Below are positions 8,277-26,464 of a stretch of DNA of 64,000 nucleotides, in pieces. The number at the start of each line of letters is the position of its first letter. Position 1 is the stretch's first letter. The notes beneath the pieces are model-generated. The model was not told the DNA's origin. It did not search any database and worked only from the letters and a program-made list of their open reading frames with translations. The position numbers and the translations under genes are program-made. This stretch comes from a virus. The DNA lies in IMG/VR virus record IMGVR_UViG_3300032323_003820, positions 1-64,000 of that record, one strand, 5' to 3'.

Positions 8277-9488
8277 ATGTCAAAAATTAAAGTTTTATGT
8301 TTACCGTCCGACCGAACAGGTGTCGGAAAATTTAGGTCAGTTGACCCCCATATTGCATTACAAAATCAATATCCTGATGACTTCCATGTAGATATCGTAT
8401 ATGACCCACCGATGGCAGATGATAACTTTTGGAAAGGTTATGATATTATTTCCTACCACAGAAGTATCGGTACTGACTTCGATTTGGCGAACATAATGAT
8501 TAAAAAACTAAACAGTATGGGTATACCTACTGTTTGTGATATCGATGATTATTGGATGCCGGGTAAAGAACACCCAATTCACGACATAATCAGGGTAAAT
8601 AAAATTAACGAAAAGATTGTTAACAACATTCGTGATTCTAAATACGTAACCACAACAACTACTTTATTTGCCGACGAAGTAAAGAAAACCAACAAAAATG
8701 TCACAATATTCCCTAATGGAATTAATCCGAACGAAGCTCAATTTAAAGAACCTACACCTGAATCTGATAGAATTAGAATTGGATGGTTAGGAGGTTCTTC
8801 ACATCTCCATGACTTACAACTACTGGAACAATCGTTCAGTAAATTGATTCCGATGAAAGATAAAGTTCAGTATGTTCTTTGTGGTTTTGATACCAGAGGA
8901 ACTGTTACTGAAATCAATAAGGAAACAGGAGAACAAAAAAGAAGAGACATCAAACCTGAAGAAACTGTGTGGGCAACGTATGAAAAAATATTCACTCAGA
9001 ATTTTCAAATTATATCAGAAGACTACAAAAAACATCTTTTAAATTATAATCAAGATGAATATTCTAACATGACAAATGAGTCATATAGAAGAGTGTGGAC
9101 ACAACCTGTAACATCATACGCTAAAAACTATTCTAAATTTGACGTTTCTTTAGCTCCGTTAAAAAATCATATGTTTAACAGAATGAAATCACAACTAAAA
9201 GTGATTGAATCAGGATTCTATAAGAAAGCATTAATTGCATCAAATTTAGGTCCTTACACAATAGATTTGAAACATTGTTTAAAAAATGGTAACTTTGTCG
9301 ACGGTAATGCTTTATTAGTAGATGAAAATCGTAACCATTCTGATTGGGCTAAGTATATTGAAAAACTTGTAAAAAACCCTAACCTAATCAAAGATATGGG
9401 TGAAAGACTGTATGAAACAGTGAAAGATGTTTATGACCTTAAAGTTATTACCAAAAACAGAGCGGAATTCTATAAATCGATTATATGA
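8277..9488 (+). CDS. Glycosyltransferase, GT-B fold (GT4-like)
   Basis: DIDDYW, RIGWLGG, APL...FN..KS.LK.IE.G...ALIAS motifs. Confidence 0.8.
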   Translation: MSKIKVLCLPSDRTGVGKFRSVDPHIALQNQYPDDFHVDIVYDPPMADDNFWKGYDIISYHRSIGTDFDLANIMIKKLNSMGIPTVCDIDDYWMPGKEHPIHDIIRVNKINEKIVNNIRDSKYVTTTTTLFADEVKKTNKNVTIFPNGINPNEAQFKEPTPESDRIRIGWLGGSSHLHDLQLLEQSFSKLIPMKDKVQYVLCGFDTRGTVTEINKETGEQKRRDIKPEETVWATYEKIFTQNFQIISEDYKKHLLNYNQDEYSNMTNESYRRVWTQPVTSYAKNYSKFDVSLAPLKNHMFNRMKSQLKVIESGFYKKALIASNLGPYTIDLKHCLKNGNFVDGNALLVDENRNHSDWAKYIEKLVKNPNLIKDMGERLYETVKDVYDLKVITKNRAEFYKSII

Positions 9489-10186
9489 TAAATTTACCTG
9501 TAGAGAAACTTTTGTTCATTGATATTGAAACAGTTGGATGTGCCTCGACCTTATCTGATTTGAAAAAAAATGATGATAAGTTGTATTCACTATTTGAACA
9601 TTATGAGTCTTGGTTTAAAAAAAGGTTTCCTGAGGATTCTAATCTAACTTTGGACGAACTCTTCATTTCGAGGAGTGCATTAGTCCCTGAATTCAATAGA
9701 ATTGTTTGTGTATGTTTGGGACTTGTAGATATGAAAGGAAACTTTAAGACAACTGTCATCTCGAATACCGATGAAAAAAAATTACTTGAGGATGTTAAAA
9801 AAACATTGGTAAAGTGTGGCGAAATGGGATATTGGTTATGTGGTCATAATGTTAAGAATTTTGATATTCCTGTGTTAGGGAAAAGGATGGTTATCAATGG
9901 ATTGATGCCACCTAAAATTTTACCTTCTTTCGATACAAAGCCGTGGGAAGTTAAAGCCATAGATACAAGAGATGTTTGGCAGTTTGGACAATACGCCTCT
10001 ATATCCACATTAGACTTAATGTGTGGTGTGATGGGTGTTAAGTCATCTAAATCAGAAGATATGGATGGTTCTAAAGTTCACGACAACTTTTGGAATAAAA
10101 AAGATTATAATAAAATAAACGAATATTGCGAGAAAGACGTTCAAGTTTTATATAACGTAGTATCAAAATTTATAAATTTAAAGTAA
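9485..10186 (+). CDS. 3'-5' exonuclease (PolB-exonuclease-related, DEDDy)
   Basis: FIDIET, GHNVKNFDIP and YCEKDV = Exo I-III motifs. Confidence 0.85.
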   Translation: MINLPVEKLLFIDIETVGCASTLSDLKKNDDKLYSLFEHYESWFKKRFPEDSNLTLDELFISRSALVPEFNRIVCVCLGLVDMKGNFKTTVISNTDEKKLLEDVKKTLVKCGEMGYWLCGHNVKNFDIPVLGKRMVINGLMPPKILPSFDTKPWEVKAIDTRDVWQFGQYASISTLDLMCGVMGVKSSKSEDMDGSKVHDNFWNKKDYNKINEYCEKDVQVLYNVVSKFINLK

Positions 10187-10788
10187 TGGACCAAGAACTA
10201 TTCAATTTAGTACAAAAAGAATTTGATAGACTTAAAAAAAATTATGGCATTGGTGATGCGGAACTCAAAGAAGACGACATTGAAAACATATTAGGGATTT
10301 CTGTCGATGAACTTGAAAAAGAATATGCATCCAACAGTCACAAACACACACTTGAAATAGAATCAATTCATCCTGATAGTGTTATCCCAAAGTATGCTTT
10401 TGAGTCCGATTCAGGATTTGACCTTTGTTCTGTCGAAGAAATTACTATACCCCCTATGGGAAGAGCTCTAGTTCCTACAGGATTAAAATTTGGAATTCCT
10501 GAATTAACTGAAATTCAAATAAGACCCAAAAGTGGTTTAGCAATTAATCAAGGTCTCACTGTTTTGAACACACCTGGAACCGTTGATTCAGGATATAATG
10601 GTGAAATCAAAGTTATTGTTTTCAATACTTCCTCAAACGCTTGTACCATAAAAAAAGGGATGAAAGTTGCCCAAGCAGTCTTATGTCCTGTTTTTTCAGG
10701 TAAGTTTGTAACATTAGAAAAAGTTAATAAAATTGGAGAAAAAGATAGAGGAGAAAATGGATTCGGGAGTACCGGTTTAAATTTATAA
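10186..10788 (+). CDS. dut: Trimeric dUTPase with acidic N-terminal extension
   Basis: SGFDL, RPKSGLA, GTVDSGYNGEI, RGENGFGSTG. Confidence 0.95.
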   Translation: MDQELFNLVQKEFDRLKKNYGIGDAELKEDDIENILGISVDELEKEYASNSHKHTLEIESIHPDSVIPKYAFESDSGFDLCSVEEITIPPMGRALVPTGLKFGIPELTEIQIRPKSGLAINQGLTVLNTPGTVDSGYNGEIKVIVFNTSSNACTIKKGMKVAQAVLCPVFSGKFVTLEKVNKIGEKDRGENGFGSTGLNL

Positions 10789-10792
10789 TTTT

Positions 10793-12430
10793 ATGTCGTT
10801 AACAATTGGATTTTCAACAAGGAAGGCAAACCCTGAATTTGTGGAGTATTTGAAAAAAAGTTCAGGATTTAAAAAAGTTCAAGTAATTGAAAAAATTAAC
10901 AATGGTGAAAAATCGCTCAGTCAAGTATATAACGAAATATTAACTGAGTCGGAAAATGACATAGTTGTTCTTTGTCATGATGATATCTATTTTGACACGC
11001 CATCTTGGTATTATAAAATTGTAAAACATTTTGAAAAAACTGATTTTGGTATTTTAGGTGTTGCAGGAACAACAGATTTATCAGAAACGGGACAATGGTG
11101 GGACCCAAAAAAAAGAAAAAATATGGTTGGAATAGTCAACCACGAAAACGGAGGAAAAAAATGGGAATCAAAGTACTCCGAGAATTCAAATAACTCGGTT
11201 ATCCCAACAATTATTGTCGATGGTTTATTCATAGCCATCAACAAGAAAAGATTAAACTCAGGATTTATAGAAGAATTCGAAGGATTCCATTTTTATGACT
11301 TATCATTTTGTTTAGAAAATTTTTTGAAAGGAACTAAAGTTGGTGTCATAACAAATATCAGAATTACACACAGGTCTATCGGGATGACCAATGAACAATG
11401 GGAACAAAACAAAATAAAGTTTGTTGAAAAATACAAAACTAACTTACCTGTAAAAGTACCATTCAATGTTGATAAAAAAATAAAAGTTTTAATCGGGTGT
11501 TTGTTCTTTCGAAATTTTACGGGTTCCGAACTTTATGTTTATGAGTTAGCAAAAAACCTAATTAAATTAAATTGCGACGTTACAATAATCTCGCAAATAG
11601 GGGGACCTCTGACAGATATGGCAAAAAGATTAGCAATAAAATGTGTATCTTTTGAACAGGCTCCAGGATTTAAACTAGGAGACGGTAAATGGGAATTCAA
11701 TGGTATTAATGGAATTGAAACATCAAAACCGAATGTGATGTATAAAGTATCAGATGTAAATTTCGATTTGATTCATATACAGCACAAACCAGTTGCAGAA
11801 AGATTATGTGAATTTTACCCTGACATTGATAAAATCTACACAATACATTCAGAAGTAATAGAACTCGAACACCCAATTAAACATCCGTCAATAAAAAAAT
11901 ATATTGCAATCAGACCCGAAATAAAAAACTACATAGTAAATGATTTCGAAATCCCTGAAGAAATGGTTGAAGTCATATATAATCCTGTTGATAACGAAAA
12001 ATTTAAACCTAAACAAGGTCAGACTAAACCTTCTTTACTTTTTGTTGGGACTATTGACTACTTGAGGAGAGAAACCATCATGGATTTATTAGAATATACC
12101 AAACAAAACAATAAGGAACTTTGGTTGATGGGAGAAGATAAGAGTAACTATCTTTCTATTCTGCAAGAACAACCGAATGTTAAATATTTTAAACCATCTT
12201 GGGGAGTTGAATCCTTGATTAATCAGTGTGAAGAAACTGCAGGTATTCAATTGGGAAGAACTACCATCGAAAGTTGGATGTGTGGTAAACCAAGTTGGAT
12301 ATATACCGTCAACTCAATCGGAAATATTGTTTCCAAAAATAAACATGAACCACCTAACGATTTAGAAAAATATTATTCGAAAAATGTTTCTTCTGAAATA
12401 AAAAAAGAATATCTTAAAATTCTATTATGA
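10793..12430 (+). CDS. Two-domain glycosyltransferase (GT-A/GT2-like N-half fused to GT-B/GT4-like C-half)
   Basis: N-half LCHDDI...VDGLFIA...FHFYD; C-half FTGSELYVYELA...VIYNPVD..F...GRTTIES. Confidence 0.8.
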   Translation: MSLTIGFSTRKANPEFVEYLKKSSGFKKVQVIEKINNGEKSLSQVYNEILTESENDIVVLCHDDIYFDTPSWYYKIVKHFEKTDFGILGVAGTTDLSETGQWWDPKKRKNMVGIVNHENGGKKWESKYSENSNNSVIPTIIVDGLFIAINKKRLNSGFIEEFEGFHFYDLSFCLENFLKGTKVGVITNIRITHRSIGMTNEQWEQNKIKFVEKYKTNLPVKVPFNVDKKIKVLIGCLFFRNFTGSELYVYELAKNLIKLNCDVTIISQIGGPLTDMAKRLAIKCVSFEQAPGFKLGDGKWEFNGINGIETSKPNVMYKVSDVNFDLIHIQHKPVAERLCEFYPDIDKIYTIHSEVIELEHPIKHPSIKKYIAIRPEIKNYIVNDFEIPEEMVEVIYNPVDNEKFKPKQGQTKPSLLFVGTIDYLRRETIMDLLEYTKQNNKELWLMGEDKSNYLSILQEQPNVKYFKPSWGVESLINQCEETAGIQLGRTTIESWMCGKPSWIYTVNSIGNIVSKNKHEPPNDLEKYYSKNVSSEIKKEYLKILL

Positions 12431-13140
12431 CAATATTAACTACTTCCTATAATTGTGCGGAATACATTGAAAAATGTTTAAATAGTATTCGAACCCAAAC
12501 CTATACCGATTTTAAATGCTACATCACCGATGACTTATCTACTGACAACACAAGAGAAGTTGTGAAAAAAGTAATCGATGGAGACGATAGATTTATCCTT
12601 ATAGAAAATGAAAAAAAAATGTATCAAGCAGGGAATTATGATAATGTAATAAGAAATTTGAATTTGGATGGTAATGAAATTTGTGTAGAAGTTGATGGTG
12701 ACGATTGGTTACCAAACTCAGGTGTCTTTCAAAAAATAAATGATGTCTATAGTAAAGGTGATGTATGGTTGACTAGTGGTTCATTCAAATATCATGATGG
12801 AAGAAAGGGATTTGCAAATCCACCAACCACTGATATTGACGTTAGAAAACAGGTTTTCACTTTATCACACCTAAGAACATGGAAAGCATGGTTATGGAAT
12901 AAAATAGACCCAAGAGATTTGAGAGACGAAAACAATCAATACTGGAATGTATCTGGTGATTTGGCGTTCATGTTTCCCATGTTTGAAATGTCCGGTATAG
13001 AACATTTTAAATTTTTGAATGATGTAAATTACGTATATAACGAGTCTAATCCCATAAACGAACACAAAGTGTATATGAATAGAGTAGTTAATACCACAAA
13101 TAAAATAAGAAATAAAAAACCATATAGTAAAATTATATGA
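12427..13140 (+). CDS. Glycosyltransferase family 2
   Basis: TTSYN...CLNSIRTQ...DDLSTDNT...VDGDDW. Confidence 0.9.
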   Translation: MTILTTSYNCAEYIEKCLNSIRTQTYTDFKCYITDDLSTDNTREVVKKVIDGDDRFILIENEKKMYQAGNYDNVIRNLNLDGNEICVEVDGDDWLPNSGVFQKINDVYSKGDVWLTSGSFKYHDGRKGFANPPTTDIDVRKQVFTLSHLRTWKAWLWNKIDPRDLRDENNQYWNVSGDLAFMFPMFEMSGIEHFKFLNDVNYVYNESNPINEHKVYMNRVVNTTNKIRNKKPYSKII

Positions 13141-13940
13141 TATACTGTGTTCTAAAAGGTGGACTGGCAAATATGATGTTTCAGATAGCCGCAACATACT
13201 CGTTTTCAATCGACTATAATACTGATTGTTCTTTTCCTAATTTGGACCACATGTTTAATTATCTTAATTCTGAAAAAACCTTCAACCCTAATTTATCACA
13301 TGCTGAGGAATATAATTTAATTTTCAAAAAACTGAAAAAAGTTTCACCCTTTCAAAATCTCAGGATGATTAATTTCCCTTTCGAATATACAAACCTTAAA
13401 TTACCGTATAATGAGGATGTAATAATCAACGGGTTCTTTCAAAGTGAAAAATATTTCAAACACAATAGAGAAAAGATATTGGAATTATTTGAACCTGATA
13501 ATTTAATAAAAGAAATTATAGAACAGAAATATGAAACCCTTTTAACGAAGAAAACAACTGCAATCCATGTCAGGAGAGGAGATTATCTAAAATTCCCCCA
13601 CCTCCATCCGTTTCAGGGTTATGATTATTACTCAAACGCAATCAATGAGTTAAAATCAGATACCGAAACTTTCTTAATTTTTAGTGATGATATTGAGTGG
13701 TGTAAAAATAATTTCAAGGGTGACGAGTACTATTTTGTGGAAAATGAAAAAGATTATGTTGAATTATATTTGATGTCTATGTGTAAAAATAATATAATTA
13801 GTAATTCATCTTTTTCATGGTGGGGAGCGTGGATGAATAAAAATTATAACAAAAAAGTAATCGGGCCAAAAAATTGGTTCGGTTCATCAATGACACTCAA
13901 GGCGGATGATATCATACCTTTAGAGTGGATAAAACTTTAG
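13137..13940 (+). CDS. GT11 alpha-1,2-fucosyltransferase-like
   Basis: GGLANMMFQ, GFFQSEKYF, IHVRRGDY, FSDDIEWC, SNSSFSWWGAW. Confidence 0.9.
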   Translation: MIYCVLKGGLANMMFQIAATYSFSIDYNTDCSFPNLDHMFNYLNSEKTFNPNLSHAEEYNLIFKKLKKVSPFQNLRMINFPFEYTNLKLPYNEDVIINGFFQSEKYFKHNREKILELFEPDNLIKEIIEQKYETLLTKKTTAIHVRRGDYLKFPHLHPFQGYDYYSNAINELKSDTETFLIFSDDIEWCKNNFKGDEYYFVENEKDYVELYLMSMCKNNIISNSSFSWWGAWMNKNYNKKVIGPKNWFGSSMTLKADDIIPLEWIKL

Positions 13941-13946
13941 TAGAAA

Positions 13947-14801
13947 ATGAAAACATTTTATAGTATTTCGCCCACACACGGTTGGGGATATGGATACGGT
14001 TTTTTTTCAAATTATAGAATTTGTTTAGAGCAACTGATTCATTACGAAAATACAAATGTTTCTGCAACACCATACATAGATTGGACTAGAACAACATGGG
14101 CCGAGGGATTTAATCCTTTCAAATCAACTGATTTCAATTTTACCTACAATCCATTTGATTTGTGGTTTGACCAAGAAATACCCTCTGAATTCGACACAAT
14201 TAAAAAATTTAGTTTGAGTCTAAGAGAGCCCTTAATTAATCACAGTAAAGATTATTTTCATGAAAAAGAAAGTCTTGGAATGCAAAAAACTGTTGATAAG
14301 AAGTATATGAAAGTAAAAAAGAACATTTTGGATAAAGTTGAGGAAATTTATAAAAATGAATTGGAAGGTCACGTTGTTTTGGGAGTCATGGCAAGGGGAA
14401 CTGAGTATAAATTTTACCACCCAAAGTATGGTGTCTTTGGTATAGAAGATTATATTAAAGAAATAAAAAAAATATTAGATGAAAATACTGATATTACAAA
14501 AATTTTTATAACTAGTGAAGAGTCTCGCTATATAGATGAGTTTAAAAAACATTTTCCTTCATCATATTCCGTTCCTGATGTTTTTAGGAGGACAGACGAA
14601 ACAGACGAATACATGAAAAGAACACACTGTTGGATGAACGTAAGTGAAAAAAGGGAAAACCATTGTAAATTGTTAGGAGAAGAAACAATAATTCAAACAA
14701 AATTACTTTCTAAGTGTGACTATCTATTCGGAATACATACCGGTATTTTTTGTGGGGCCATACTTTGGAATGAAAACATAAAAAAAATATTCAAAATATG
14801 A
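13947..14801 (+). CDS. O-fucosyltransferase/NodZ(GT23)-like GDP-sugar transferase, copy 1
   Basis: GFFSN, LGV..RGTE, KIFITSE, LLSKCDYL; paralog of 16143..17033. Confidence 0.65.
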   Translation: MKTFYSISPTHGWGYGYGFFSNYRICLEQLIHYENTNVSATPYIDWTRTTWAEGFNPFKSTDFNFTYNPFDLWFDQEIPSEFDTIKKFSLSLREPLINHSKDYFHEKESLGMQKTVDKKYMKVKKNILDKVEEIYKNELEGHVVLGVMARGTEYKFYHPKYGVFGIEDYIKEIKKILDENTDITKIFITSEESRYIDEFKKHFPSSYSVPDVFRRTDETDEYMKRTHCWMNVSEKRENHCKLLGEETIIQTKLLSKCDYLFGIHTGIFCGAILWNENIKKIFKI

Positions 14802-14829
14802 AAAAGTAATTTGATAAAAAATTAAACTT

Positions 14830-15240
14830 ATGGAAAAAATATACTCAAAAAAAGAACCTGGCAAATTATTACATATAATTTACAGGAAAGAGGATATAAC
14901 TGATGATAGAATAGATATTGTTCCTGAAGAGAACTTTATCCAATGCTCCAGTTTGAATCTTAAAGAAGGAAAAACTTTCAAACCTCATAGACACGTATGG
15001 AAAGAGAGAACTAGAAATGTTATTGCTCAGGAGTCATGGGTTGTAATACAAGGAAAGGTTAAATGTATTTTTTATGATTTGGATGATGAAATTTTATCTG
15101 AACCAATTTTAAATGTCGGAGACGCAAGCTTTACATTAGAGGGTGGGCACAACTACCTTATTTTGGAAGATAATACTTTAGTTTATGAATATAAGACAGG
15201 CCCTTATGAAGGTCAAAAATCAGACAAAGAGTTTTTATAA
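14830..15240 (+). CDS. WbuC-like cupin
   Basis: PHRH..QESWVVIQG..GGHNY..EYKTGPY cupin motifs, in a glycan cluster. Confidence 0.7.
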   Translation: MEKIYSKKEPGKLLHIIYRKEDITDDRIDIVPEENFIQCSSLNLKEGKTFKPHRHVWKERTRNVIAQESWVVIQGKVKCIFYDLDDEILSEPILNVGDASFTLEGGHNYLILEDNTLVYEYKTGPYEGQKSDKEFL

Positions 15241-15252
15241 AAAAAGTAAAAT

Positions 15253-16098: not shown

Positions 16099-16142
16099 TC
16101 AAATAATAACTTTTAAAAGAAAATAAAAAAAATATTTTAAAT

Positions 16143-17738: not shown

Positions 17739-17785
17739 TTATGACACAACGAAATATAATCTAAAATTATTGAAAATATAAAAAA

Positions 17786-19677: not shown

Positions 19678-19741
19678 TTCACATCATAATCCTTGTTCCA
19701 TAGGAACATTACCAAAAAAATTAGGTTACAATGAAAAATAA
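19664..19741 (+). pseudogene. Decayed 5' fragment of the aminotransferase gene (MQQNNSHHNPCSIGTLPKKLGYNEK*)
   Basis: Matches MEQNKKTHYNPWPIGKVPKN...LGYN of 20565..21302 and sits in the same overlap position after the GT10 copy. Confidence 0.7.
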
Positions 19742-19771
19742 ATTTAGAATTTTAATAAATAAATTTTATCA

Positions 19772-20578
19772 GTGAAAAAAAAAATTGGACTTATCGGCGG
19801 TGGTTTTCAACATGCAATATCAACCAATGGATTAGAAAATAACCACGTCGAATGGATAAAAAACTCATACGATTGTGAAGTAACGATTCATGTTGACAAT
19901 GGTTTGTTTACTACTCCAAGTTCTAAAACAAAAAGTTACGGATGGTTGTGCGAATCTAGAACAGTTTTCCCTCAATATCATAATTTTGCCGCCAGAAATA
20001 TACATTATTTAAAAAAAAATTTTATTAAAGTTTTCACTCATGATGTAGAATTATCAAAACTATCAGACATATTTCAACTTACTCAATCTAGTGCAAAATC
20101 TTTCATCCCACATGGACAGATTTATCCAAAAAAGAAGTTAGTTTCCATGATAGCATCAAATAAAATAATGTGTAATGAACATAAATTCAGACAACAAATC
20201 ATAAAAAAATTTCAAGATAAATGTGACCATTTTGGTCGTGGATTTAAAGAACTGGAAGATAAAAAAGACGGATTGTCAGATTATTGTTTTTCAATAGCAA
20301 TGGAAAATTTAACTTATCCGAATATGTTCACTGAAAAAATAACTGATTGCTTTGTGACAGGTACTATACCAATATATTACGGAATGAATAATATTGGTGA
20401 TTTTTTTGATAAAGATGGTATTATTGAACTAACTGATGATTTTAAAATAGAGGATTTGAGTTTTGATTTATATTATTCTAAAATGAATTCCATAAAAAAT
20501 AACTTTGAAATTTCTATGAATTTATTATCATCCGAAGACTACATTTATAAAAATTTTATCGAAAATGGAACAGAATAA
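19772..20578 (+). CDS. GT10 alpha-1,3-fucosyltransferase-like, copy 2
   Basis: Same length (268 aa) and near-identical C-half to 18871..19677; GTG start. Confidence 0.8.
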   Translation: MKKKIGLIGGGFQHAISTNGLENNHVEWIKNSYDCEVTIHVDNGLFTTPSSKTKSYGWLCESRTVFPQYHNFAARNIHYLKKNFIKVFTHDVELSKLSDIFQLTQSSAKSFIPHGQIYPKKKLVSMIASNKIMCNEHKFRQQIIKKFQDKCDHFGRGFKELEDKKDGLSDYCFSIAMENLTYPNMFTEKITDCFVTGTIPIYYGMNNIGDFFDKDGIIELTDDFKIEDLSFDLYYSKMNSIKNNFEISMNLLSSEDYIYKNFIENGTE

Positions 20579-21302
20579 AAAAACTCATTATAATCCTTGG
20601 CCAATAGGTAAGGTACCCAAAAATTTACAAAGACCTGAGTTAGATAAAATAAAAGAACTTGGATATAATTGGCAAGACCCGAGAGACGTTGTAACAATTT
20701 TTGAGGAAAAAGTTGCAAATTTTTCTGGTAGTAAATTTGCCGTTAGTGTAGATTGTTGTTCACATGGTATTTTTTTATCACTCAAATATTTGCAACATAT
20801 AGGTGAACTTGAAGTCGGAAAGACTTTAACAATACCTAAAATGACTTATGTTTCCGCAGCAATGCAAATAGTTCATGCAGGTAATGAAGTCAACTTTGAA
20901 GATGTTGAATGGTCTGGTGTGTATCCTATAAAAGGTTGTCGTGTTTGGGATGGTGCGGTAAGGTGGAATAAAGATATGTATGTCGGAAACGATGCATTAC
21001 AAGTCGTGTCATTTCAAATTAAAAAAAGGGTACCTATTGGAAAAGGGGGTGTTATTTTAACGGATAGTGAAGATGCATTCAATTGGTTAAAATTGGCGTC
21101 TTATGATGGTAGGGATTTGAATACACCATACACCGACGAAAACCATATAAGTATAATTGGATATCATATGTATATGACACCTGAAGACGCTGCCAGAGGA
21201 ATTATTTTGATTGATAGTGTACCAGAACACAATGAGGATACGGGAAGCAATAATACTTACGTGGATGTGAGTAAAATATTCGAAAAACTTTACAAAAATT
21301 AA
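20565..21302 (+). CDS. DegT/DnrJ/EryC1/StrS PLP sugar aminotransferase (short form)
   Basis: FEEKVA.F.G.K.AVSVDCCS, VSFQIKK..IGKGG (PLP lysine region), GYHMYM. Confidence 0.8.
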   Translation: MEQNKKTHYNPWPIGKVPKNLQRPELDKIKELGYNWQDPRDVVTIFEEKVANFSGSKFAVSVDCCSHGIFLSLKYLQHIGELEVGKTLTIPKMTYVSAAMQIVHAGNEVNFEDVEWSGVYPIKGCRVWDGAVRWNKDMYVGNDALQVVSFQIKKRVPIGKGGVILTDSEDAFNWLKLASYDGRDLNTPYTDENHISIIGYHMYMTPEDAARGIILIDSVPEHNEDTGSNNTYVDVSKIFEKLYKN

Positions 21303-21303
21303 T

Positions 21304-22284
21304 ATGGGAAATAAAAAAGCATTTATCACAGGAATAAATGGTCAAGATGGAAGCTACTTGGCGGAGCATTTGCTTGACTTAGGATATGATGTCTACGGCA
21401 TCATTAGAAGAAACTCTACTGTTGAGTCACAACAGAATAGATTTACAGACGACATCAGAAATAAAATCACAATTCATTATGGTGACCTTTTAGACCAGTC
21501 AGGATTAGAAAGATTGTTAGATGAAATACAACCGGACGAAATTTACAATTTAGCGGCCCAAAGTCATGTAAGAATTAGTTTTGATATACCACAATTCACC
21601 GTACAGACAAATGCTTTAGGTACTCTGAATTTATTAGAAGCATACAGGAGGTCTTGTCCTAATTCCAAATTTTATCAAGCAAGTTCATCTGAGATGTTCG
21701 GTAATAGTGTTGATTCGGATGGATTCCAAAGAGAAACAACTCCGATGCATCCCGTCAGCCCTTATGGGTGTTCGAAATTATTTGCGTATAGTATTGTAAG
21801 AAATTATAGAAACGCATATAAACTACACGCGTGTAACGGGATTTTGTTTAATCACGAATCACCACGAAGAGGTTCTAACTTTGTTACAAACAAAGTAGTC
21901 AAAAAAGCAGTTGAAATAAAACTTGGACTATCTGAAAAATTAATTCTTGGAAATATGGATAGTTATCGTGATTGGGGTCATTCTAAGGACTATGTTAGAG
22001 CAATGCACATGATATTAAACCACGAAACTCCTGAAGATTTTGTAGTGTCAACTATGACAACACATTCAGTAAGAGAAATGGTTGAGTACGTCTTTGGTAA
22101 ACTTGATTTAGATTACAAAGAATATGTTTTTCAAGACGAAAAGTTCATGAGAGCGGAAGAATTAAAATATTTGAAGGGAGACTCGACAAAAATTAGAGCG
22201 TTGTTAGGATGGGAACCAGAATACACTTTCGAAACTCTTTTAGATGATATGATAAATGGATGGACAAATCGTTTATCCAAATAA
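21304..22284 (+). CDS. gmd: GDP-mannose 4,6-dehydratase
   Basis: ITGINGQDGSYLAE, NLAAQSHV, QASSSE, SPYGCSK, GILFNHESPRRG, RDWGH. Confidence 0.97.
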   Translation: MGNKKAFITGINGQDGSYLAEHLLDLGYDVYGIIRRNSTVESQQNRFTDDIRNKITIHYGDLLDQSGLERLLDEIQPDEIYNLAAQSHVRISFDIPQFTVQTNALGTLNLLEAYRRSCPNSKFYQASSSEMFGNSVDSDGFQRETTPMHPVSPYGCSKLFAYSIVRNYRNAYKLHACNGILFNHESPRRGSNFVTNKVVKKAVEIKLGLSEKLILGNMDSYRDWGHSKDYVRAMHMILNHETPEDFVVSTMTTHSVREMVEYVFGKLDLDYKEYVFQDEKFMRAEELKYLKGDSTKIRALLGWEPEYTFETLLDDMINGWTNRLSK

Positions 22285-22313
22285 AGAACAATTAATTAAA
22301 AAAAAATAAAAAA

Positions 22314-22949
22314 GTGAAAACACAAGATTGTTTTAATTGGGATTTTTACACCGAATCTTATTATGAGAACGAAATGTCAATGTTGTCTGAAAAATATAAT
22401 TTAGATTTAATTATTGATAATTTTGATATAGAAAATAATGAAATAGTTTTTAAAAATAATTTGCACAACAATTGGATGGAATTGTATCATCAAATACATA
22501 AATTGAAAGTAAGTTCAGTTTATGAGTGTGGTTGTGGTTGTGCACATCATTTAATAAACATATATAAAATCGATAATAACATAGATATTGGTGGGTGTGA
22601 TTATTCACAAAATCAAATAGATTTAGGTAAAAAATATTTTAATTTGGATAGTTACCCTTTCAAAGAAAAATTAAAAGTAATTGATTTGACTAATGATTTA
22701 TACGAAATTGATAAAACGTATGAATTTGTTTTTACTCAGGCGGTTGTAATGCATCTTTCTTATGAGAGAGCAAAAAAATTTTTATCAAATATAAAAAAAA
22801 TAACAAACAAATATATCTTTTTGATAGAAAATCTAAATTATCACGATTTTAATCAATTAATTAGTGAAGTCTTACCAGAATTTGAAAAAGTTGATTTAGA
22901 TAAAAAATATGTAGATTATGCGATATTATTAAAACGTAAAGGTTCATAA
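22314..22949 (+). CDS. Class I SAM methyltransferase
   Basis: VYECGCGC, GCDYS, FVFTQAVVMH; GTG start. Confidence 0.8.
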   Translation: MKTQDCFNWDFYTESYYENEMSMLSEKYNLDLIIDNFDIENNEIVFKNNLHNNWMELYHQIHKLKVSSVYECGCGCAHHLINIYKIDNNIDIGGCDYSQNQIDLGKKYFNLDSYPFKEKLKVIDLTNDLYEIDKTYEFVFTQAVVMHLSYERAKKFLSNIKKITNKYIFLIENLNYHDFNQLISEVLPEFEKVDLDKKYVDYAILLKRKGS

Positions 22950-22995
22950 TTTGAAGAGAAAAGATAAAAACAAAATAAATTTCTAAATTAAAAAA

Positions 22996-23730
22996 ATGAG
23001 TAAACCCACAAGAAAACCGTTAATCCCAACTCCAACAGAAGAGGTCAAAAAATACAAAACAAAAAAAGAACAAATTAATACAATTATAAATAAAAAAACT
23101 AAAAACAAATTTTTAAGTGAAAGTCAAAGAGAATATTATGATAAGTTAATAAATAATGAAATAACAATTTGTTCTGGTCCTGCGGGTGTTGGTAAAAGTT
23201 ATGTTGCAATGAAATCAGCGGTAGACCTTTTGATTGACCCGGGAACACCATACGAAAAAATTATAATTGTTAGACCAGCAGTTGAAGCTGAAGAAAAATT
23301 AGGTTCTCTTCCAGGTAATGTTGAAGAAAAATTAGACCCTTACATTTTCCCATCTTATTATCTATTGAATAAAATAGTTGGAAAAGAAATCAGAGAAAAA
23401 TTAAAAGAAATTGAAGCGATTGAAGTATTTGCTTTAGCTTATATGAGAGGTATGAATATTGACAATTCTATTTTAATATTTGAGGAAGCTCAAAACTCTA
23501 CTCCAGGTCAGATGAAACTTTTACTGACAAGAATTGGTTTCAATTCTAAGTTTTTTATATCCGGTGATTTAGAACAATTCGACAGACATAAAGATAAAAC
23601 TCAGACAGGTCTTTGGGATGCGATTAGTAAATTTAAAGATATGGATAGAGTCGGAATTCATGAATTTGAATCTAAAGACGTTGTCAGGAACCCCCTTATC
23701 TCCGAAATTTTGAAAAAATATGATGAATGA
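22996..23730 (+). CDS. phoH: PhoH-family ATPase
   Basis: GPAGVGKS, RPAVEAEEKLGSLPG, YMRG, EEAQN, GDLEQ. Confidence 0.95.
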   Translation: MSKPTRKPLIPTPTEEVKKYKTKKEQINTIINKKTKNKFLSESQREYYDKLINNEITICSGPAGVGKSYVAMKSAVDLLIDPGTPYEKIIIVRPAVEAEEKLGSLPGNVEEKLDPYIFPSYYLLNKIVGKEIREKLKEIEAIEVFALAYMRGMNIDNSILIFEEAQNSTPGQMKLLLTRIGFNSKFFISGDLEQFDRHKDKTQTGLWDAISKFKDMDRVGIHEFESKDVVRNPLISEILKKYDE

Positions 23731-24323
23731 AAATAGGTATTGATGTTAATAATGTTCTTAGGGATACCCTCACGAAAATAGAACAAGTTTATGAAAGATG
23801 GCTCATTGAAAACCATGATGATGATGAGGAAGATGAATTCAAATATGAAATTAAATCTCCTGTAACTTCATTAGACTTAATGAATCATTTATCTTTTAAA
23901 GATAAAGACCATCTTTATGATTTCTTGTATAAGGATTTTACCATGGAAATATTTGGTCACGCTGGTTCTGTCGAAATGACAACAATGAATGACCTTAATG
24001 ATTTCTACCATAATTTGAGGGAGTATCATGATATCATAATTGTTTCAGATGAGATTGGTAAATCAAAACCCGCAACTTTATTTTTTATTTCTAAATTTGG
24101 TTGTTTGATTGAAACAATTAAATTTTATTCTGAACAAACAAAAAAACAGATGTGGAAATCTGTAGATATTTTACTTACTGCGAATCCTGGACTACTTTTG
24201 AATAAACCATCGAAAAAAATGGTTATAAAATACGAAACCTCTTTTAATAAACACATTCACGCAGAACATACAATAACAAATTTAAAAGAACTCGAAAATA
24301 AAATAAAAGAAATTTATGGTTAA
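23727..24323 (+). CDS. HAD-superfamily 5'(3')-nucleotidase-like protein (degenerate motif I)
   Basis: IGIDVNNVLRD resembles DxDGVL; the layout fits phage NT5C-like proteins. Confidence 0.55.
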   Translation: MKIGIDVNNVLRDTLTKIEQVYERWLIENHDDDEEDEFKYEIKSPVTSLDLMNHLSFKDKDHLYDFLYKDFTMEIFGHAGSVEMTTMNDLNDFYHNLREYHDIIIVSDEIGKSKPATLFFISKFGCLIETIKFYSEQTKKQMWKSVDILLTANPGLLLNKPSKKMVIKYETSFNKHIHAEHTITNLKELENKIKEIYG

Positions 24324-24597
24324 CGTTTTGGGTGAAAACTATTTTATTGATTTGGACGCTGTCGAAGACTACTTAGATATGAGTTTGGAACCATCTATTG
24401 AAAATTCAGGTGTAACTGAAACTAAAGTAAATTTGATTAAATTTGAAATGGTCAAGATGCTATTAGAAGTTATATTGTCTGAAGATGTTGAGATGGATGA
24501 TAAATTGGGTATCAAATCATCAAATAGTTCAACTTCAATCCCATTCAAAATTGCATTCAATACTCTGTTAAATAAAAAATTAATTAACTATTATTAA
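24316..24597 (+). CDS. Hypothetical phage protein
   Basis: 93 aa, in operon. Confidence 0.7.
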   Translation: MVNVLGENYFIDLDAVEDYLDMSLEPSIENSGVTETKVNLIKFEMVKMLLEVILSEDVEMDDKLGIKSSNSSTSIPFKIAFNTLLNKKLINYY

Positions 24598-24600
24598 AAA

Positions 24601-25656
24601 ATGGAAAATAACTTAAAAGAAAAGGTTCAACAATCCATAGAGAACTTAAAAAATAAGACCTCAAGGATTTACTTCATGGTCCAAGACACCAAAGGAAATG
24701 CTAAAGCTTCTGTTAGATATATCTATCAAGTTGCTATGTCATTGAAAGAAGCAGGTTACAATGCAATAATTCTACACGAAAAAAACGACTACACTGGTGT
24801 GGGTGGATGGATGGGCCCTGAATATATGGAAAACATTCCACATAAGTCTATTGAAAAACAAAACTTAGAAATTGCGCCTGAAGACTTTATTGTCATACCT
24901 GAATTATTTGGTTATGTTATGGAACAAATCAAAAATATCCCATGTGGAAAAATAGTTATGACACAGTCTTACAAATACATGTTAGAAACGTTACAACCTG
25001 GTCAAACATGGCAACAATTTGGTTTTTTCAAATGTTTGACAACTACCCAAAAACAAAAAGAATATATCGAGGGAATCATGAAAAATGTGAGTGTTGATAT
25101 ATTAACTCCATACATTTCGGATGTTTTTGAAAAAAGAGAGTTACCTCCGATGCCAATTATTGGTATTCATTCAAGGGAACAATCCGATACAATTAATTTG
25201 ATAAAAACTTTTTATCTAAAGTTTCCACAATTTAGATGGTTCACATTTAGAGATTTGAGAGGTCTCAGTGAAAAAGAATTTGCAAACTCCTTAAAAGAAT
25301 GTTTTTTATCTGTTTGGATTGATAGAGAAAGTGGTTTTGGGACCTACCCAATAGAATCTATGGCCTGTGGTGTTCCTGTTATGGGACTTATCCCTGATAT
25401 GTTACCAGAATGGATGGTAGAAGAAAACGGAATTTGGGTTGATGACATAACTATGTTACCTGATTTTATTGCCGATTTCACACAAAATTGGTTAGAAGAT
25501 AATATCAAACCAGAACTATATTCTGGTATTGATGCAACTTCAGCAAAATATAAAAATAAAGATGAATTTAACAGTAAGAATTTAGAACTTTTCGATTCTT
25601 ACATAAAAACAAGAGTTGAGTCTTTAGAATCACAAATTTCAAAATTAGAAGATTAA
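24601..25656 (+). CDS. Glycosyltransferase, GT-B fold
   Basis: DFIVIPE, ESGFGTYPIESMACGVPV (GT4-type Ex7E motif). Confidence 0.8.
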   Translation: MENNLKEKVQQSIENLKNKTSRIYFMVQDTKGNAKASVRYIYQVAMSLKEAGYNAIILHEKNDYTGVGGWMGPEYMENIPHKSIEKQNLEIAPEDFIVIPELFGYVMEQIKNIPCGKIVMTQSYKYMLETLQPGQTWQQFGFFKCLTTTQKQKEYIEGIMKNVSVDILTPYISDVFEKRELPPMPIIGIHSREQSDTINLIKTFYLKFPQFRWFTFRDLRGLSEKEFANSLKECFLSVWIDRESGFGTYPIESMACGVPVMGLIPDMLPEWMVEENGIWVDDITMLPDFIADFTQNWLEDNIKPELYSGIDATSAKYKNKDEFNSKNLELFDSYIKTRVESLESQISKLED

Positions 25657-25657
25657 T

Positions 25658-26464
25658 ATGAAAAATAAATTACCAGTTTCAGTAATTCTGCCAATAAAAT
25701 CTGCAATTGTAAAAGACTTTGAAGATTACTTTGACAAAGCAATAAAGTCTATAATATCAAATGACGTAATTCCTTCCGAGTTAGTAATTGTTCATACACA
25801 AGAAGAAAAATTAGTCAACTTTTTGAACAGTTATAATTTCGAAGAACTAAACGTAAAAAAATTAAAGTTTGAAGACTCACCAAATTATTGTTCACAAGTT
25901 AATTTTGGTATAAAAAGTAGCGAATACGAATGGGTTTCAATATTCGAATTCGATGATGAATATTCATCCATATGGTTCCGAAATGTAAAAAAATACATGG
26001 ACGCATATCCAACCGCTCAGGTTTTACTACCTGTCGTTGTTGATACCGATTCAAAAGGAATGTTTGCAGGATTCACAAATGAAGCAGTTTTCGCAGCAAA
26101 CTTCACTCAAGAATTAGGATATCTAACAAATGAAACTTTACAAAATTATCAGAATTTTCAAACCGCAGGTTCAGTTATAAAAAAACAAGTTTTCGAAGAT
26201 TTCGGTTATTTCAAGTCATCAATCAAGTTAACATTTGTATATGAATTTCTTTTGAGACTAACATATAATTCAGTGAACATAATGACTATTCCAAAACTTG
26301 GTTATAAACATTTGAACATGAGAGAAGGTTCAATATTTTGGTCTTACAAAAACTCATCAGAAAAAATGCTTGAGGATGAAGTTAAATTTTGGTTAGCAAC
26401 TGCAAAAAAAGAATACTTTTTTGTTGAGGATAGAACCATAAAATATGAACCACAAGAATCCTAA
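25658..26464 (+). CDS. Glycosyltransferase family 2-like
   Basis: VSVILP, N.GI...EWVSIFEFDD, EFLLRL. Confidence 0.8.
   Translation: MKNKLPVSVILPIKSAIVKDFEDYFDKAIKSIISNDVIPSELVIVHTQEEKLVNFLNSYNFEELNVKKLKFEDSPNYCSQVNFGIKSSEYEWVSIFEFDDEYSSIWFRNVKKYMDAYPTAQVLLPVVVDTDSKGMFAGFTNEAVFAANFTQELGYLTNETLQNYQNFQTAGSVIKKQVFEDFGYFKSSIKLTFVYEFLLRLTYNSVNIMTIPKLGYKHLNMREGSIFWSYKNSSEKMLEDEVKFWLATAKKEYFFVEDRTIKYEPQES

What the first reader, a model, noticed from the sequence alone, without database searches (positions are those of the whole stretch)
8277..26464. 18-kb phage glycan factory: GDP-6-deoxyhexose pathway, five fucosyltransferase-fold enzymes and methyl/acetyl tailoring
Seen: about 10 GT genes (GT4-like, a GT2-GT4 fusion, GT2s, GT11, 2x GT10, 2x NodZ/O-FucT-like), gmd, a PLP aminotransferase, an acetyltransferase, a cupin and four methyltransferases. 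None has an obvious signal peptide or transmembrane segment, and there is no flippase, polymerase, ligase or initiating transferase. Known: Gmd gives GDP-4-keto-6-deoxymannose; a DegT enzyme plus an acetyltransferase can convert this to GDP-(N-acetyl)perosamine; GT10/11/23 use GDP-sugars. No fcl gene is in the window. Inference: a cytoplasmic, lipid-carrier-independent pathway building a branched, methylated glycan on virion proteins, as in giant eukaryotic viruses, rather than O-antigen conversion. DNA modification is an alternative.
Basis: partly seen in the sequence, partly recalled or inferred. Interest (0 to 1): 0.8.

Follow-up and report, generated by a model that had tools for sequence, protein, structure and literature searches.

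The report
Variable glycan gene island, lake phage
A large lake phage carries a swappable block of about twenty genes for making and joining unusual sugars; similar blocks are already known in related ocean and Baltic phages, and it is still unknown whether they coat the virus particle or the infected cell.

Summary
The window is part of a T4-like jumbo phage from lakes: a 94.5-kb contig, about 31% complete. Positions 8277-26464 hold 10 glycosyltransferase genes, including GT11, two GT10 and two NodZ-like. They also hold Gmd, a short DegT aminotransferase, a hexapeptide acyltransferase, a WbuC-like cupin and 3-4 methyltransferases. None has a transmembrane segment. Three unrelated genes interrupt the block (PolB-exo-like, dUTPase, PhoH).

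No fcl, initiating transferase, flippase or polymerase is present in the contig. The last three are also absent from four 93-100% complete relatives.

The kind is already published: T4-like cyanophages (S-SRM01, S-SSM7, S-SCSM1, S-SCSM2R) and Flavobacterium phage immuto carry similar islands, usually called LPS or cell-wall genes.

New here:
- A conserved Gmd / cupin / ~240-aa "mini-DegT" / acyltransferase cassette, found at more than 560 viral loci.
- The locus behaves like a serotype locus. A relative whose capsid protein is 88% identical carries a different glycan cassette at the same site, and lake contigs lack the whole block.

The acceptor is unresolved. I put virion proteins at about 0.4, host envelope glycan at about 0.35 and DNA at 0.05 or less, since a cultured relative's DNA shows no glycosylated nucleoside.

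The parts
8277..9488 (+). GT-B glycosyltransferase, 403 aa. It lies just outside the variable block and is conserved in many relatives.
   Evidence: phrog_7162 E 4e-42. 63% identical in L003. High contig depth in lake runs.
9485..10788 (+). PolB-exonuclease-like gene (9485-10186) and dUTPase (10186-10788). They sit in the block but are not glycan genes.
   Evidence: PF10108 E 4e-13; PF00692 E 9e-26.
10793..12430 (+). Two-domain glycosyltransferase: GT2_5 N-terminal, GT4 C-terminal.
   Evidence: PF13712 E 2e-26 (residues 29-214); PF13439 E 2e-10 (residues 244-402).
12427..13140 (+). GT2 glycosyltransferase.
   Evidence: PF00535 E 2e-19.
13137..13940 (+). GT11 (alpha-1,2-fucosyltransferase type).
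   Evidence: PF01531 E 7e-26. Motif HVRRGDY at residue 144. 30-34% identical to GT11 genes of the S-SRM01 and S-SSM7 islands.
13947..14801 (+). NodZ-like (GT23-type) transferase, paralog 1.
   Evidence: PF05830 21 bits, below cut-off. 53% identical to 16143-17033. The joint profile hits NodZ 2hhc only.
14830..15240 (+). WbuC-like cupin with invariant H53, H55 and H107. Probable nucleotide-sugar epimerase or ketoisomerase.
   Evidence: TIGR04366 39.4 bits. Model pLDDT 93. Nearest folds are the FdtD ketoisomerase domain (Z 8.5) and WbcA (Z 8.0), tied with generic cupins. Present at 48 of 80 viral mini-DegT loci.
15253..16098 (+). 281-aa protein, probably an FkbM-type methyltransferase.
   Evidence: No Pfam, PHROG or PDB hit. 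Atlas feature match 0.97 to a cluster in which 42% of members carry PF05050. This is a lead only.
16143..17033 (+). NodZ-like transferase, paralog 2.
   Evidence: PF05830 32.7 bits, above cut-off 28.3.
17118..18373 (+). FkbM methyltransferase (17118-17738) and Methyltransf_24 methyltransferase (17786-18373).
   Evidence: PF05050 E 4e-8 and TIGR01444 52.9 bits; PF13578 E 2e-8.
18360..18884 (+). Left-handed beta-helix (hexapeptide) sugar N-acyltransferase.
   Evidence: NeuD/PglB/VioB family E 5e-12. Full-length PDB match to 3vbi-3vbp, E 5e-15. Present at 35 of 80 viral mini-DegT loci.
18871..20578 (+). Two GT10-type transferases (18871-19677, 19772-20578), tandem paralogs.
   Evidence: PF00852 32 and 39 bits. 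71% identical to each other. 35-43% identical to 'putative transferase' genes of cyanophages S-SRM01, S-T4, S-SM2 and S-SSM7.
20565..21302 (+). Mini-DegT: a 245-aa sugar aminotransferase that lacks the C-terminal domain.
   Evidence: PF01041 E 5e-15. Lys154 aligns with the catalytic Lys of GDP-perosamine synthase. D129 and K154 are invariant in 24 homologs. Top fold matches are 3dr4, 3dr7 and 3bn1. 1625 database relatives; the best 120 are 235-329 aa, nearly all about 240 aa.
21304..22284 (+). GDP-mannose 4,6-dehydratase (Gmd).
   Evidence: PF16363 394 bits. It is the only SDR in the contig.
22314..22949 (+). Class I SAM methyltransferase.
   Evidence: PF13649 27.8 bits.
22996..24597 (+). PhoH (22996-23730) and two unknown ORFs (198 and 93 aa). 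Conserved flank genes, not glycan genes.
   Evidence: PF02562 E 4e-61. No hits for the other two. Syntenic in L003, L034 and L036.
24601..26464 (+). GT-B transferase (24601-25656) and GT2 transferase (25658-26464).
   Evidence: PDB 8xsg, a glucosyltransferase, E 7.5e-6. PF00535 26 bits.
9430..26495 (.). Extent of the present/absent block among lake relatives.
   Evidence: Contigs of three lake runs join about 9421-9428 directly to 26495 (table 5c). This was at an 85% likeness threshold, so it is provisional.
5684..5690 (+). Promoter-like motif TATTTAT. It is the only + strand copy before 27219.
   Evidence: The motif is about 20-fold enriched 6-24 nt before start codons, including those of the portal, protease and fibre genes. 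No + strand terminator-like site lies in 5000-25000.
1..1965 (-). Fibre protein with two collagen-like (G-S-S / G-T-S)n tracts. Candidate O-glycosylation substrate. The gene is cut by the contig end.
   Evidence: PF01391 E 1e-24. Tracts at residues 381-503 and 582-653 are about 60% Ser/Thr with no Pro.

Best explanation
This is a strain-variable glycan-assembly island of a freshwater T4-like jumbo phage lineage.

Shown by sequence: Gmd would make GDP-4-keto-6-deoxymannose. A conserved cassette (WbuC-like cupin, ~240-aa mini-DegT aminotransferase, hexapeptide acyltransferase) sits beside it.

Inferred: the cassette converts part of that intermediate into an N-acylated amino-dideoxyhexose of the N-acetylperosamine type. 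The cupin may first epimerise or isomerise the 4-keto sugar. Ten soluble glycosyltransferases then build a branched heteroglycan rich in 6-deoxyhexose in the cytoplasm of the infected cell. Five of the ten are of GDP-sugar (fucosyltransferase) types. Three or four methyltransferases add methyl groups.

Most likely acceptor, by a narrow margin: virion surface proteins such as the fibres. In that case the locus acts as a serotype locus of the virus particle, as in giant viruses and mycobacteriophages.
For: Enzymes and pathway:
- Family assignments.
- The best PDB match of mini-DegT is GDP-perosamine synthase, by sequence and by fold. The PLP Lys and Asp are invariant.
- Cassette co-occurrence at 80 viral loci: Gmd 58, cupin 48, acyltransferase 35.

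No lipid-carrier parts:
- No TM segment in any cluster protein.
- No Bac_transf, WecA-type, Wzx or Wzy in four 93-100% complete relatives of 326-362 kb.

Position and likely timing:
- The island lies between fibre genes (1-5653, - strand) and downstream genes that look structural by position only: they have no family hit, and some carry the same motif.
- Its only upstream promoter-like motif (5684) is the one found before the portal, protease and fibre genes. No internal copy or terminator follows until 27219. This suggests late co-expression.

Serotype-like behaviour:
- G005 has a capsid protein 88% identical and a fibre 90% identical. It keeps the flanks at 70% nt identity but carries a different glycan cassette: GT2, GT11, GT10, two MTs, an acyltransferase, a full-length DegT, a UDPG/GDP-Man dehydrogenase and an SDR.
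- Chloroviruses encode their own Gmd and GT/MT enzymes that build the capsid-protein glycan (PMC7019647).

Candidate acceptors:
- The adjacent fibre has (GSS/GTS)n collagen-like tracts.
- The motif [ST]GxT is over-represented in three likely virion proteins: z 9.2, 4.8 and 2.9 against shuffles.

DNA as target is made unlikely by the immuto nucleoside data.
Against: - No result identifies the acceptor.
- Characterised bacterial members of GT10, GT11 and NodZ that I know of act on lipid-linked or free oligosaccharides (my own knowledge, not checked here).
- In L004/L005 the core cassette sits next to gp46/47-like recombination genes, not structural genes. Position is therefore not conserved.
- G004 has the syntenic island but no detectable homolog of the collagen-like fibre.
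- A collagen-like ORF lies within 10 kb of mini-DegT at only 10 of 83 viral loci.
- The capsid protein has no Ser/Thr-rich C-terminal tail of the mycobacteriophage type.
- The 'late' class of the promoter motif is inferred, not measured.
Confidence: 0.4

Rival explanations
1. Host-envelope remodelling. The soluble phage GTs extend a host Und-PP-linked (or lipid A-core-linked) acceptor on the inner face of the membrane. The host's own initiating transferase, flippase and ligase then export the new glycan. This changes LPS, capsule or O-glycoproteins of the infected cell, for example to block superinfection, to stop progeny from sticking to debris, or to deter grazers.
For: - This is the standard published reading of the homologous cyanophage islands (PMC9602691; PMC12801897).
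- O-antigen and capsule GTs are typically soluble or peripheral (my own knowledge, not checked here), so fit this reading equally well.
- Cassette swapping and whole-block loss among close relatives resemble bacterial O-antigen loci under an arms race.
- Mini-DegT relatives sit in a bacterial sugar-nucleotide operon on a Bdellovibrio chromosome.
- Earlier notes report a phage-borne TonB receptor and lipoprotein in the same window (not checked here).
Against: - I know of no lytic phage shown to build a multi-sugar surface glycan on its host.
- The same donor cassette and GT10-type genes occur in phages of very different hosts: a Flavobacterium phage and Synechococcus phages. That is easier to explain with a phage-borne acceptor.
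- The only recognisable upstream promoter motif is shared with structural genes. Late expression suits surface remodelling poorly.
Confidence: 0.35
2. DNA hypermodification. The GTs decorate modified bases of phage DNA with sugars, as in T-even phages and the systems of Pyle et al. 2024 (cited in PMC12619734).
For: - A dUTPase and a PolB-exo-like gene lie in the block.
- A thymidylate-synthase-family gene sits at the contig end.
- DNA glycosylation is the classic role of GTs in T4-like phages.
Against: - The TS-family gene matches true ThyA best (E 3e-50). No hydroxymethylase appears among the 60 best PDB matches shown.
- DNA of the cultured relative immuto, which carries a comparable island with a mini-DegT, gave only dA, dC, dT and fdPreQ1 by LC-UV-MS (PMC10516641).
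- Ten GTs, five of fucosyltransferase type, plus sugar methyltransferases and an aminosugar pathway far exceed any DNA glycan I know of.
Confidence: 0.05
3. Another product: a glycolipid, a free or secreted oligosaccharide, or glycosylation of host cytoplasmic proteins as a takeover device.
For: - Nothing ties the GTs to any acceptor.
- NodZ-type enzymes act on free chito-oligosaccharides.
Against: There is no positive evidence. A 20-gene, strain-variable locus is hard to explain for an internal target that is not exposed to selection from outside.
Confidence: 0.1

Closest known systems
Glycan ('LPS' / 'cell wall synthesis and modification') islands of T4-like cyanophages: P-SSM2, S-SSM7, S-SRM01, S-SCSM1, S-SCSM2R
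   Same: - T4-like myophage background.
- Gmd plus several GT11, GT10-like, NodZ-like and GT2 enzymes and an FkbM methyltransferase in one block.
- Direct homology: GT10-like 35-43%, GT11 28-34%, Gmd 46%.
- S-SCSM2R also has a mini-DegT.
- Function untested in all of them.
   Different: - Different host group: probably Bacteroidota, judged from A-rich, SD-less leaders and Flavobacterium phage relatives.
- No fcl, whereas S-SRM01 and S-SCSM1 have one.
- An aminosugar branch (cupin, mini-DegT, acyltransferase) and four methyltransferases.
- Cassette replacement at a fixed locus is shown here.
[quoted passage not shown]
   Same: - Capsid protein 41% identical.
- Island with about six GTs, a methyltransferase, a mini-DegT (37% identical), a PglB-type acetyltransferase and an SDR.
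   Different: - No Gmd, GT10 or GT11 is annotated there.
- It also has a full-length WecE-type aminotransferase.
- Its DNA carries fdPreQ1, whereas no DpdA was found in this contig (contig incomplete).
Autonomous virion glycosylation of giant viruses (chlorovirus PBCV-1; Mimivirus/Megavirinae fibrils)
   Same: - Virus-encoded Gmd.
- Soluble multi-domain GTs with attached or neighbouring methyltransferases.
- Fucose or 6-deoxyhexose-rich methylated glycans (PMC7019647).
- The dehydratase + aminotransferase + N-acetyltransferase logic and the clade-specific clusters of Megavirinae are from my own knowledge.
   Different: - Eukaryotic hosts.
- No sequence relationship was tested here.
- Glycan on the virion is proven there and not here.
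Mycobacteriophage virion glycosylation (Freeman et al. 2023, as cited in PMC12619734)
   Same: Phage-encoded GTs act in the cytoplasm on virion proteins. The function is accessory.
   Different: - There, few GTs and glycans on C-terminal tails of the capsid and tail-tube subunits.
- Here, the capsid protein has no such tail, and there are 10 GTs plus a donor-sugar pathway.
GDP-perosamine / N-acetylperosamine pathway (Gmd, Per, PerB) and the anthrose pathway with the collagen-like BclA glycoprotein
   Same: - Gmd.
- The aminotransferase is closest to Caulobacter GDP-perosamine synthase.
- A hexapeptide N-acyltransferase whose only strong PDB match is 3vbi-3vbp. From memory, and not confirmed by a tool, these are AntD of anthrose synthesis.
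- O-methylation, and a collagen-like Ser/Thr-rich protein next door (BclA/anthrose background in PMC6222408).
   Different: - The aminotransferase lacks the whole C-terminal domain.
- An extra cupin is part of the cassette.
- No match to PerB was found.
- The sugar product is not determined.

Membership tests
Glycan island of T4-like aquatic phages (cyanophage 'LPS gene' type) | Sits in a T4-like myophage genome | tested here: met
   gp23 (242 bits), gp20 portal (253 bits), T4-type TerL and the prohead protease. The capsid protein is related to those of the Mel-JY01, immuto and RM378 phages.
Glycan island of T4-like aquatic phages (cyanophage 'LPS gene' type) | Nucleotide-sugar genes plus several GTs, including fucosyltransferase-type families, in one block | tested here: met
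   Compare the S-SRM01 and S-SSM7 annotations.
Glycan island of T4-like aquatic phages (cyanophage 'LPS gene' type) | Direct homology of member genes | tested here: met
   GT10-like 35-43%, GT11 28-34%, Gmd 46% to the S-SRM01 and S-SSM7 loci. The other genes have no match there.
Glycan island of T4-like aquatic phages (cyanophage 'LPS gene' type) | Variable between related phages | tested here: met
   G005 carries a different cassette at the same locus. Lake contigs skip 9.43-26.5 kb.
Self-contained Und-P-dependent O-antigen/capsule pathway (Wzx/Wzy type) | Initiating phosphoglycosyl transferase (Bac_transf or WecA/MraY type) | tested here: not met
   None in the contig. None in four 93-100% complete relatives. 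Host supply cannot be excluded.
Self-contained Und-P-dependent O-antigen/capsule pathway (Wzx/Wzy type) | Flippase and polymerase/ligase | tested here: not met
   No Polysacc_synt hit in the four complete relatives. The one Wzy_C match (14 bits, G007) lies below the cut-off. No polytopic membrane protein in the contig. ABC-type exporters were not searched.
GDP-(N-acetyl)perosamine pathway | GDP-mannose 4,6-dehydratase | tested here: met
   PF16363 394 bits; TIGR01472 390.6 bits against cut-off 415.
GDP-(N-acetyl)perosamine pathway | Per-type C4 aminotransferase with PLP Lys | tested here: inconclusive
   K154 aligns with the catalytic Lys. Per is the top hit by sequence and by fold. The E-value margins over other DegT enzymes are small. 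The C-terminal domain is missing. A co-conserved cupin may change the substrate.
GDP-(N-acetyl)perosamine pathway | PerB-type N-acetyltransferase | tested here: inconclusive
   A hexapeptide acyltransferase is present. The PDB match is to 3vbi-3vbp, not to PerB entries.
GDP-L-fucose pathway | GDP-fucose synthase (Fcl/GMER) | tested here: not met
   Gmd is the only SDR in the 94.5 kb. The complete relative G004, which has the syntenic island, has no Fcl-like hit. G005 has one at 186 bits inside its island.
Mycobacteriophage-type virion glycosylation | Ser/Thr-rich C-terminal extension on the capsid or tail-tube subunit | tested here: not met
   The capsid protein ends without such a tail. The tail tube was not identified.
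Mycobacteriophage-type or giant-virus-type virion glycosylation | Glycan physically attached to virion proteins | not testable with these tools
   Needs purified virions.
T-even-type DNA glycosylation | Hydroxymethylase making the base that is glycosylated | tested here: inconclusive
   The TS-family gene at 93781-94416 matches true ThyA best. It is cut before the specificity-determining residue. The contig is 31% complete.
T-even-type DNA glycosylation | Glycosylated nucleosides in virion DNA | not testable with these tools
   For the cultured relative immuto, a paper reports none.

The most novel reading that the evidence does not exclude
The island is a 'serotype locus' of the virus particle. 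In the cytoplasm, without any lipid carrier, it builds a strain-specific glycan directly on virion fibres. The glycan would be methylated and rich in amino- and 6-deoxy-sugars. The attachment sites would be collagen-like Ser/Thr tracts or [ST]GxT sites. Related phages would swap whole cassettes to change their coat. This would be the first giant-virus-style autonomous virion glycosylation in phages of Gram-negative bacteria. It would use a new minimal aminotransferase lacking the C-terminal domain that all characterised DegT enzymes I know of have.
Probability: 0.35. Interest if true: 0.8.

Novelty: new member of a known kind. Interest (0 to 1): 0.5.

Why it matters
Large glycan islands have been noted in aquatic T4-like phages since the first cyanomyovirus genomes. 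They are routinely labelled 'LPS' or 'cell wall' auxiliary genes, yet in the papers read here their product and acceptor are inferred only, not measured.

This lake phage extends the kind beyond cyanophages:
- It belongs to an abundant freshwater jumbo-phage lineage. Near-identical words occur in lake metagenomes of about 14 independent studies from 2017 to 2025.
- The locus is swapped like a bacterial O-antigen locus between phages with nearly identical capsids.

It also points to a tractable test system, the cultured Flavobacterium phage immuto. And it defines a compact four-gene donor-sugar cassette with an unusually short aminotransferase that could be characterised in vitro.

If the glycan proves to be on the virion, it would change how phage-particle surfaces, host range and particle fate in water are viewed. 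If it is on the host, it would be the first demonstrated case of a lytic phage re-coating its host.

Tried and rejected
- Megablast of the whole island against 50,697 phage records: no match.
- tblastn of the NodZ-like protein against phage records: no match.
- The 281-aa ORF: no Pfam, PHROG or PDB hit.
- Cupin profile against PDB sequences: only spurious designed-protein hits. Its fold neighbours are tied between sugar ketoisomerases/epimerases and generic cupins, so its reaction is not assigned.
- Bacteroidetes -7 motif TAnnTTTG and sigma-70 scans: not informative.
- Single-protein scan of genome contigs for mini-DegT: nothing. The profile scan found 21 loci.
- Literature searches for PDB codes 3VBI/3VBJ found nothing. 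The identity of that entry with AntD therefore rests on memory.
- Freeman et al. 2023 is not held.
- No paper on glycosylated cyanophage virions was found.
- No RNA holder was listed for the island, so expression and timing could not be examined.
- Complex prediction of mini-DegT (two copies) with the cupin gave no verdict (score 0.00). It was run to test whether the cupin stands in for the missing C-terminal domain.
- The two extra SDRs next to Gmd in L004 could not be assigned to Fcl or Rmd.
- Collagen-like ORFs near mini-DegT occur at only 10 of 83 loci, and G004 lacks the fibre. A specific island-collagen link was therefore dropped to the level of one candidate.

Full report
WHAT THE WINDOW IS. 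The window is the first 64 kb of a single 94.5-kb viral contig with no terminal repeat. CheckV rates it 31% complete. It encodes a T4-type major capsid protein, portal, large terminase and prohead protease. The capsid protein is 599 aa, with an insertion of about 230 aa relative to the Pfam model.

The nearest cultured capsid proteins are from Microcystis phage Mel-JY01 (42%) and Flavobacterium phage immuto (41%). Complete relatives in IMG/VR are 326-362 kb and have capsid proteins 60-88% identical. This is therefore a fragment of a jumbo T4-like phage. GC is about 31% throughout, and the island is not compositionally foreign. Gene starts are preceded by A-rich, Shine-Dalgarno-less leaders. 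Together with the Flavobacterium phage relatives, this suggests a Bacteroidota host (inference). Near-identical words of the island occur in freshwater and lake metagenomes of about 14 independent studies from 2017 to 2025.

Between 8277 and 26464 on the + strand there are ten glycosyltransferase genes with eleven GT domains:
- a GT-B enzyme (phrog_7162, E 4e-42);
- a GT2_5 + GT4 fusion;
- two GT2 enzymes;
- one GT11 with the HVRRGDY motif;
- two NodZ-like paralogs (53% identical; their joint profile hits only NodZ in PDB);
- two GT10 paralogs (71% identical);
- a second GT-B enzyme.

The block also holds Gmd (394 bits), a DegT-family protein of only 245 aa and a hexapeptide acyltransferase. 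There is a WbuC-like cupin and three methyltransferases by Pfam. A fourth methyltransferase candidate rests on a language-model match only.

Three genes in the block are not glycan genes (PolB-exonuclease-like, dUTPase, PhoH) and two are unknown. No cluster protein has a membrane-spanning or signal-like hydrophobic segment. The contig has one SDR only (Gmd), so no fcl. It has no Bac_transf hit and no polytopic membrane protein other than a 115-aa, four-TM protein.

THE DONOR-SUGAR BRANCH. The short DegT is not a broken gene. It has 1625 database relatives. The best 120 are 62-93% identical and nearly all about 240 aa (range 235-329), some on contigs of 140-376 kb. More than 560 IMG/VR loci encode it.

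In 24 aligned homologs, Lys154 is invariant. It aligns with the catalytic lysine of Caulobacter GDP-perosamine synthase. Asp129, which sits in a D-x-A motif, is also invariant. A confident model (pLDDT 89) superposes best on GDP-perosamine synthase (3dr4, 3dr7, 3bn1; E 1e-10; TM 0.60 over the query). It simply lacks the C-terminal domain.

Around 80 viral copies, the genes that recur are Gmd (58), the cupin (48), the acyltransferase (35) and a GT10 gene (25). The usual order is cupin, acyltransferase, mini-DegT, Gmd. The acyltransferase aligns over its full length with PDB 3vbi-3vbp (E 5e-15). From memory these entries are AntD, the N-acyltransferase of anthrose synthesis; I could not confirm this with a tool.

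The cupin has an invariant H-x-H...H set. Its nearest folds include sugar 3,4-ketoisomerases and the WbcA epimerase, but generic cupins score the same.

My reading is that Gmd makes GDP-4-keto-6-deoxymannose. The cupin may epimerise or isomerise it. The mini-DegT aminates it and the acyltransferase caps the amine. The product would be a sugar of the N-acetylperosamine type. Only the enzyme families are shown; the product is inferred.

The five fucosyltransferase-type enzymes need GDP-sugars. With no fcl, they may use host GDP-fucose or the phage's own GDP-sugars. The complete relative G004 has the syntenic island and no Fcl-like gene. G005 has an Fcl-like SDR inside its island.

THIS KIND OF ISLAND IS ALREADY KNOWN.
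- The GT10-like genes have 35-43% identical homologs in T4-like cyanophages.
- In S-SRM01 and S-SSM7 these homologs sit in blocks annotated with Gmd, GDP-fucose synthase, NodZ, two or three GT11, GT2, GT25 and FkbM genes.
- Papers describe 13 'cell wall' genes in S-SCSM1 and 22 in S-SCSM2R, of which 13 are GTs. They read them as host-surface or DNA modification, without experiments.
- Flavobacterium phage immuto has an island with about six GTs, a mini-DegT, a PglB-type acetyltransferase, a methyltransferase and an SDR.

THE LOCUS IS CONSERVED IN PLACE AND VARIABLE IN CONTENT.
- L003 (capsid 79%) and G004 (capsid 62%) keep the same gene order, from dUTPase through PhoH to the gene at 26464, at 40-85% protein identity. 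Individual GT and MT genes are gained or lost.
- In G005 (capsid 88%, fibre 90%) the flanks align at 70% nucleotide identity. The 12.4-23.0 kb core, however, is replaced by a different cassette: NAD synthase, UDP-Glc/GDP-Man dehydrogenase, GT2, GT11, GT10, two methyltransferases, a hexapeptide transferase, a full-length DegT, a Zn-dehydrogenase and an SDR.
- In four lake metagenomes, contig depth is 5-40 times higher on the flanks than inside the island. In three of the four, contigs join about 9425 directly to 26495, so they lack the whole block. Other contigs skip 15228-17681 or 14485-18548. That run used an 85% likeness threshold, and the tool warns that such joints can be spurious.

The island is therefore accessory and behaves like an O-antigen-type variable locus.

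WHAT IS THE ACCEPTOR? No computation here decides it.

For virion proteins:
- No lipid-carrier enzyme (Bac_transf, WecA type, Wzx, Wzy) is found in four 93-100% complete relatives.
- The island lies between fibre genes and downstream genes that look structural by position only (no family hit for them).
- The motif (A)TATTTAT(A) is about 20-fold enriched 6-24 nt before start codons, including those of the portal, protease and fibre genes. It occurs once before the block (5684) and not again until 27219. No + strand terminator-like site lies in 5000-25000. This suggests co-expression with late genes.
- The same donor cassette and GT10-type genes occur in phages of unrelated hosts.
- The neighbouring fibre has two (GSS/GTS)n collagen-like tracts. 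This recalls the glycosylated collagen-like BclA protein.
- [ST]GxT is over-represented in three likely virion proteins (z 9.2, 4.8 and 2.9). It could equally be a structural turn motif.

Against virion proteins, or for the host envelope:
- O-antigen and capsule GTs are normally soluble and use host Und-PP acceptors. The missing membrane parts therefore prove nothing.
- In L004/L005 the core cassette lies next to recombination genes.
- G004 has the island but no homolog of the collagen-like fibre.
- A collagen-like ORF accompanies mini-DegT at only 10 of 83 loci.
- The capsid protein has no Ser/Thr-rich tail.

Against DNA:
- The thymidylate-synthase-family gene looks like true ThyA.
- DNA of immuto contains only dA, dC, dT and fdPreQ1 (PMC10516641).

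My odds are: virion proteins about 0.4, host envelope about 0.35, another product about 0.1, DNA 0.05 or less; the remaining ~0.1 I leave unassigned.

VERDICT. The claim of lipid-carrier independence and of virion glycosylation 'rather than' host conversion is plausible but unproven. The island is a new member of a published kind.

The points worth following up are:
- the widespread minimal DegT cassette;
- the cassette-swapping behaviour of the locus;
- the cultured relative, in which the acceptor question could be settled at the bench.

Noticed in passing
whole contig; e.g. window 5684, 27219, 31501, 34896(-), 41642(-), 43093(-), 44960(-), 51366(-), 59496(-): The motif (A)TATTTAT(A) lies 6-24 nt before start codons. 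The 8-mer ATATTTAT occurs before 13 genes against 0.6 expected. It is probably this phage's late-type promoter, with near-leaderless mRNAs. It resembles the reverse complement of the T4 late promoter sequence TATAAATA.
   Followed up: partly
window 37148-38947 (-): The gp23-type capsid protein is 599 aa. It has an insertion of about 230 aa (roughly residues 110-345) that phage database hits do not cover. This may be a surface decoration domain.
   Followed up: no
window 31520-33022 (+), 1991-5653 (-), 1-1965 (-): The motif [ST]-G-x-T is over-represented against composition shuffles: 7 vs 0.6, 12 vs 3.5 and 9 vs 3.8. None of the copies lies in the collagen tracts. Contexts look like hydrophobic-x-[ST]GxT-hydrophobic. 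It may be a sequon or a structural turn repeat; this was not decided.
   Followed up: partly
window 1-1965 (-); G005:C1:27.9-32.7 kb: The fibre has proline-free (GSS/GTS)n collagen-like tracts. The relative G005 also has a 1707-aa protein with about a dozen such tracts.
   Followed up: partly
L016 (Bdellovibrio sp. HCB2-146 chromosome) 6720-11151: A 222-aa mini-DegT homolog sits in a bacterial operon with a UDP-Glc/GDP-Man dehydrogenase, an SDR and two radical-SAM/SPASM enzymes. The short aminotransferase is therefore not confined to phages.
   Followed up: partly
window 54547-56553 (+): A phage-encoded two-ring ClpB/Hsp104-type AAA+ protein (AAA_2 226 bits, ClpB_D2-small).
   Followed up: no
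window 51395-53020 (-): One ORF joins a Pol-beta-type nucleotidyltransferase domain to a peptidoglycan-binding domain and a glucosaminidase-like domain.
   Followed up: no
G000:C1:93781-94416 (+), beyond the window: A thymidylate synthase of true ThyA type, cut by the contig end.
   Followed up: partly
L114 (G005:C1:109800-123400) 362-1153: An NAD synthase gene lies inside the alternative glycan cassette of the closest complete relative. S-SSM7 also has 'NAD+ synthetase' genes in its island.
   Followed up: no
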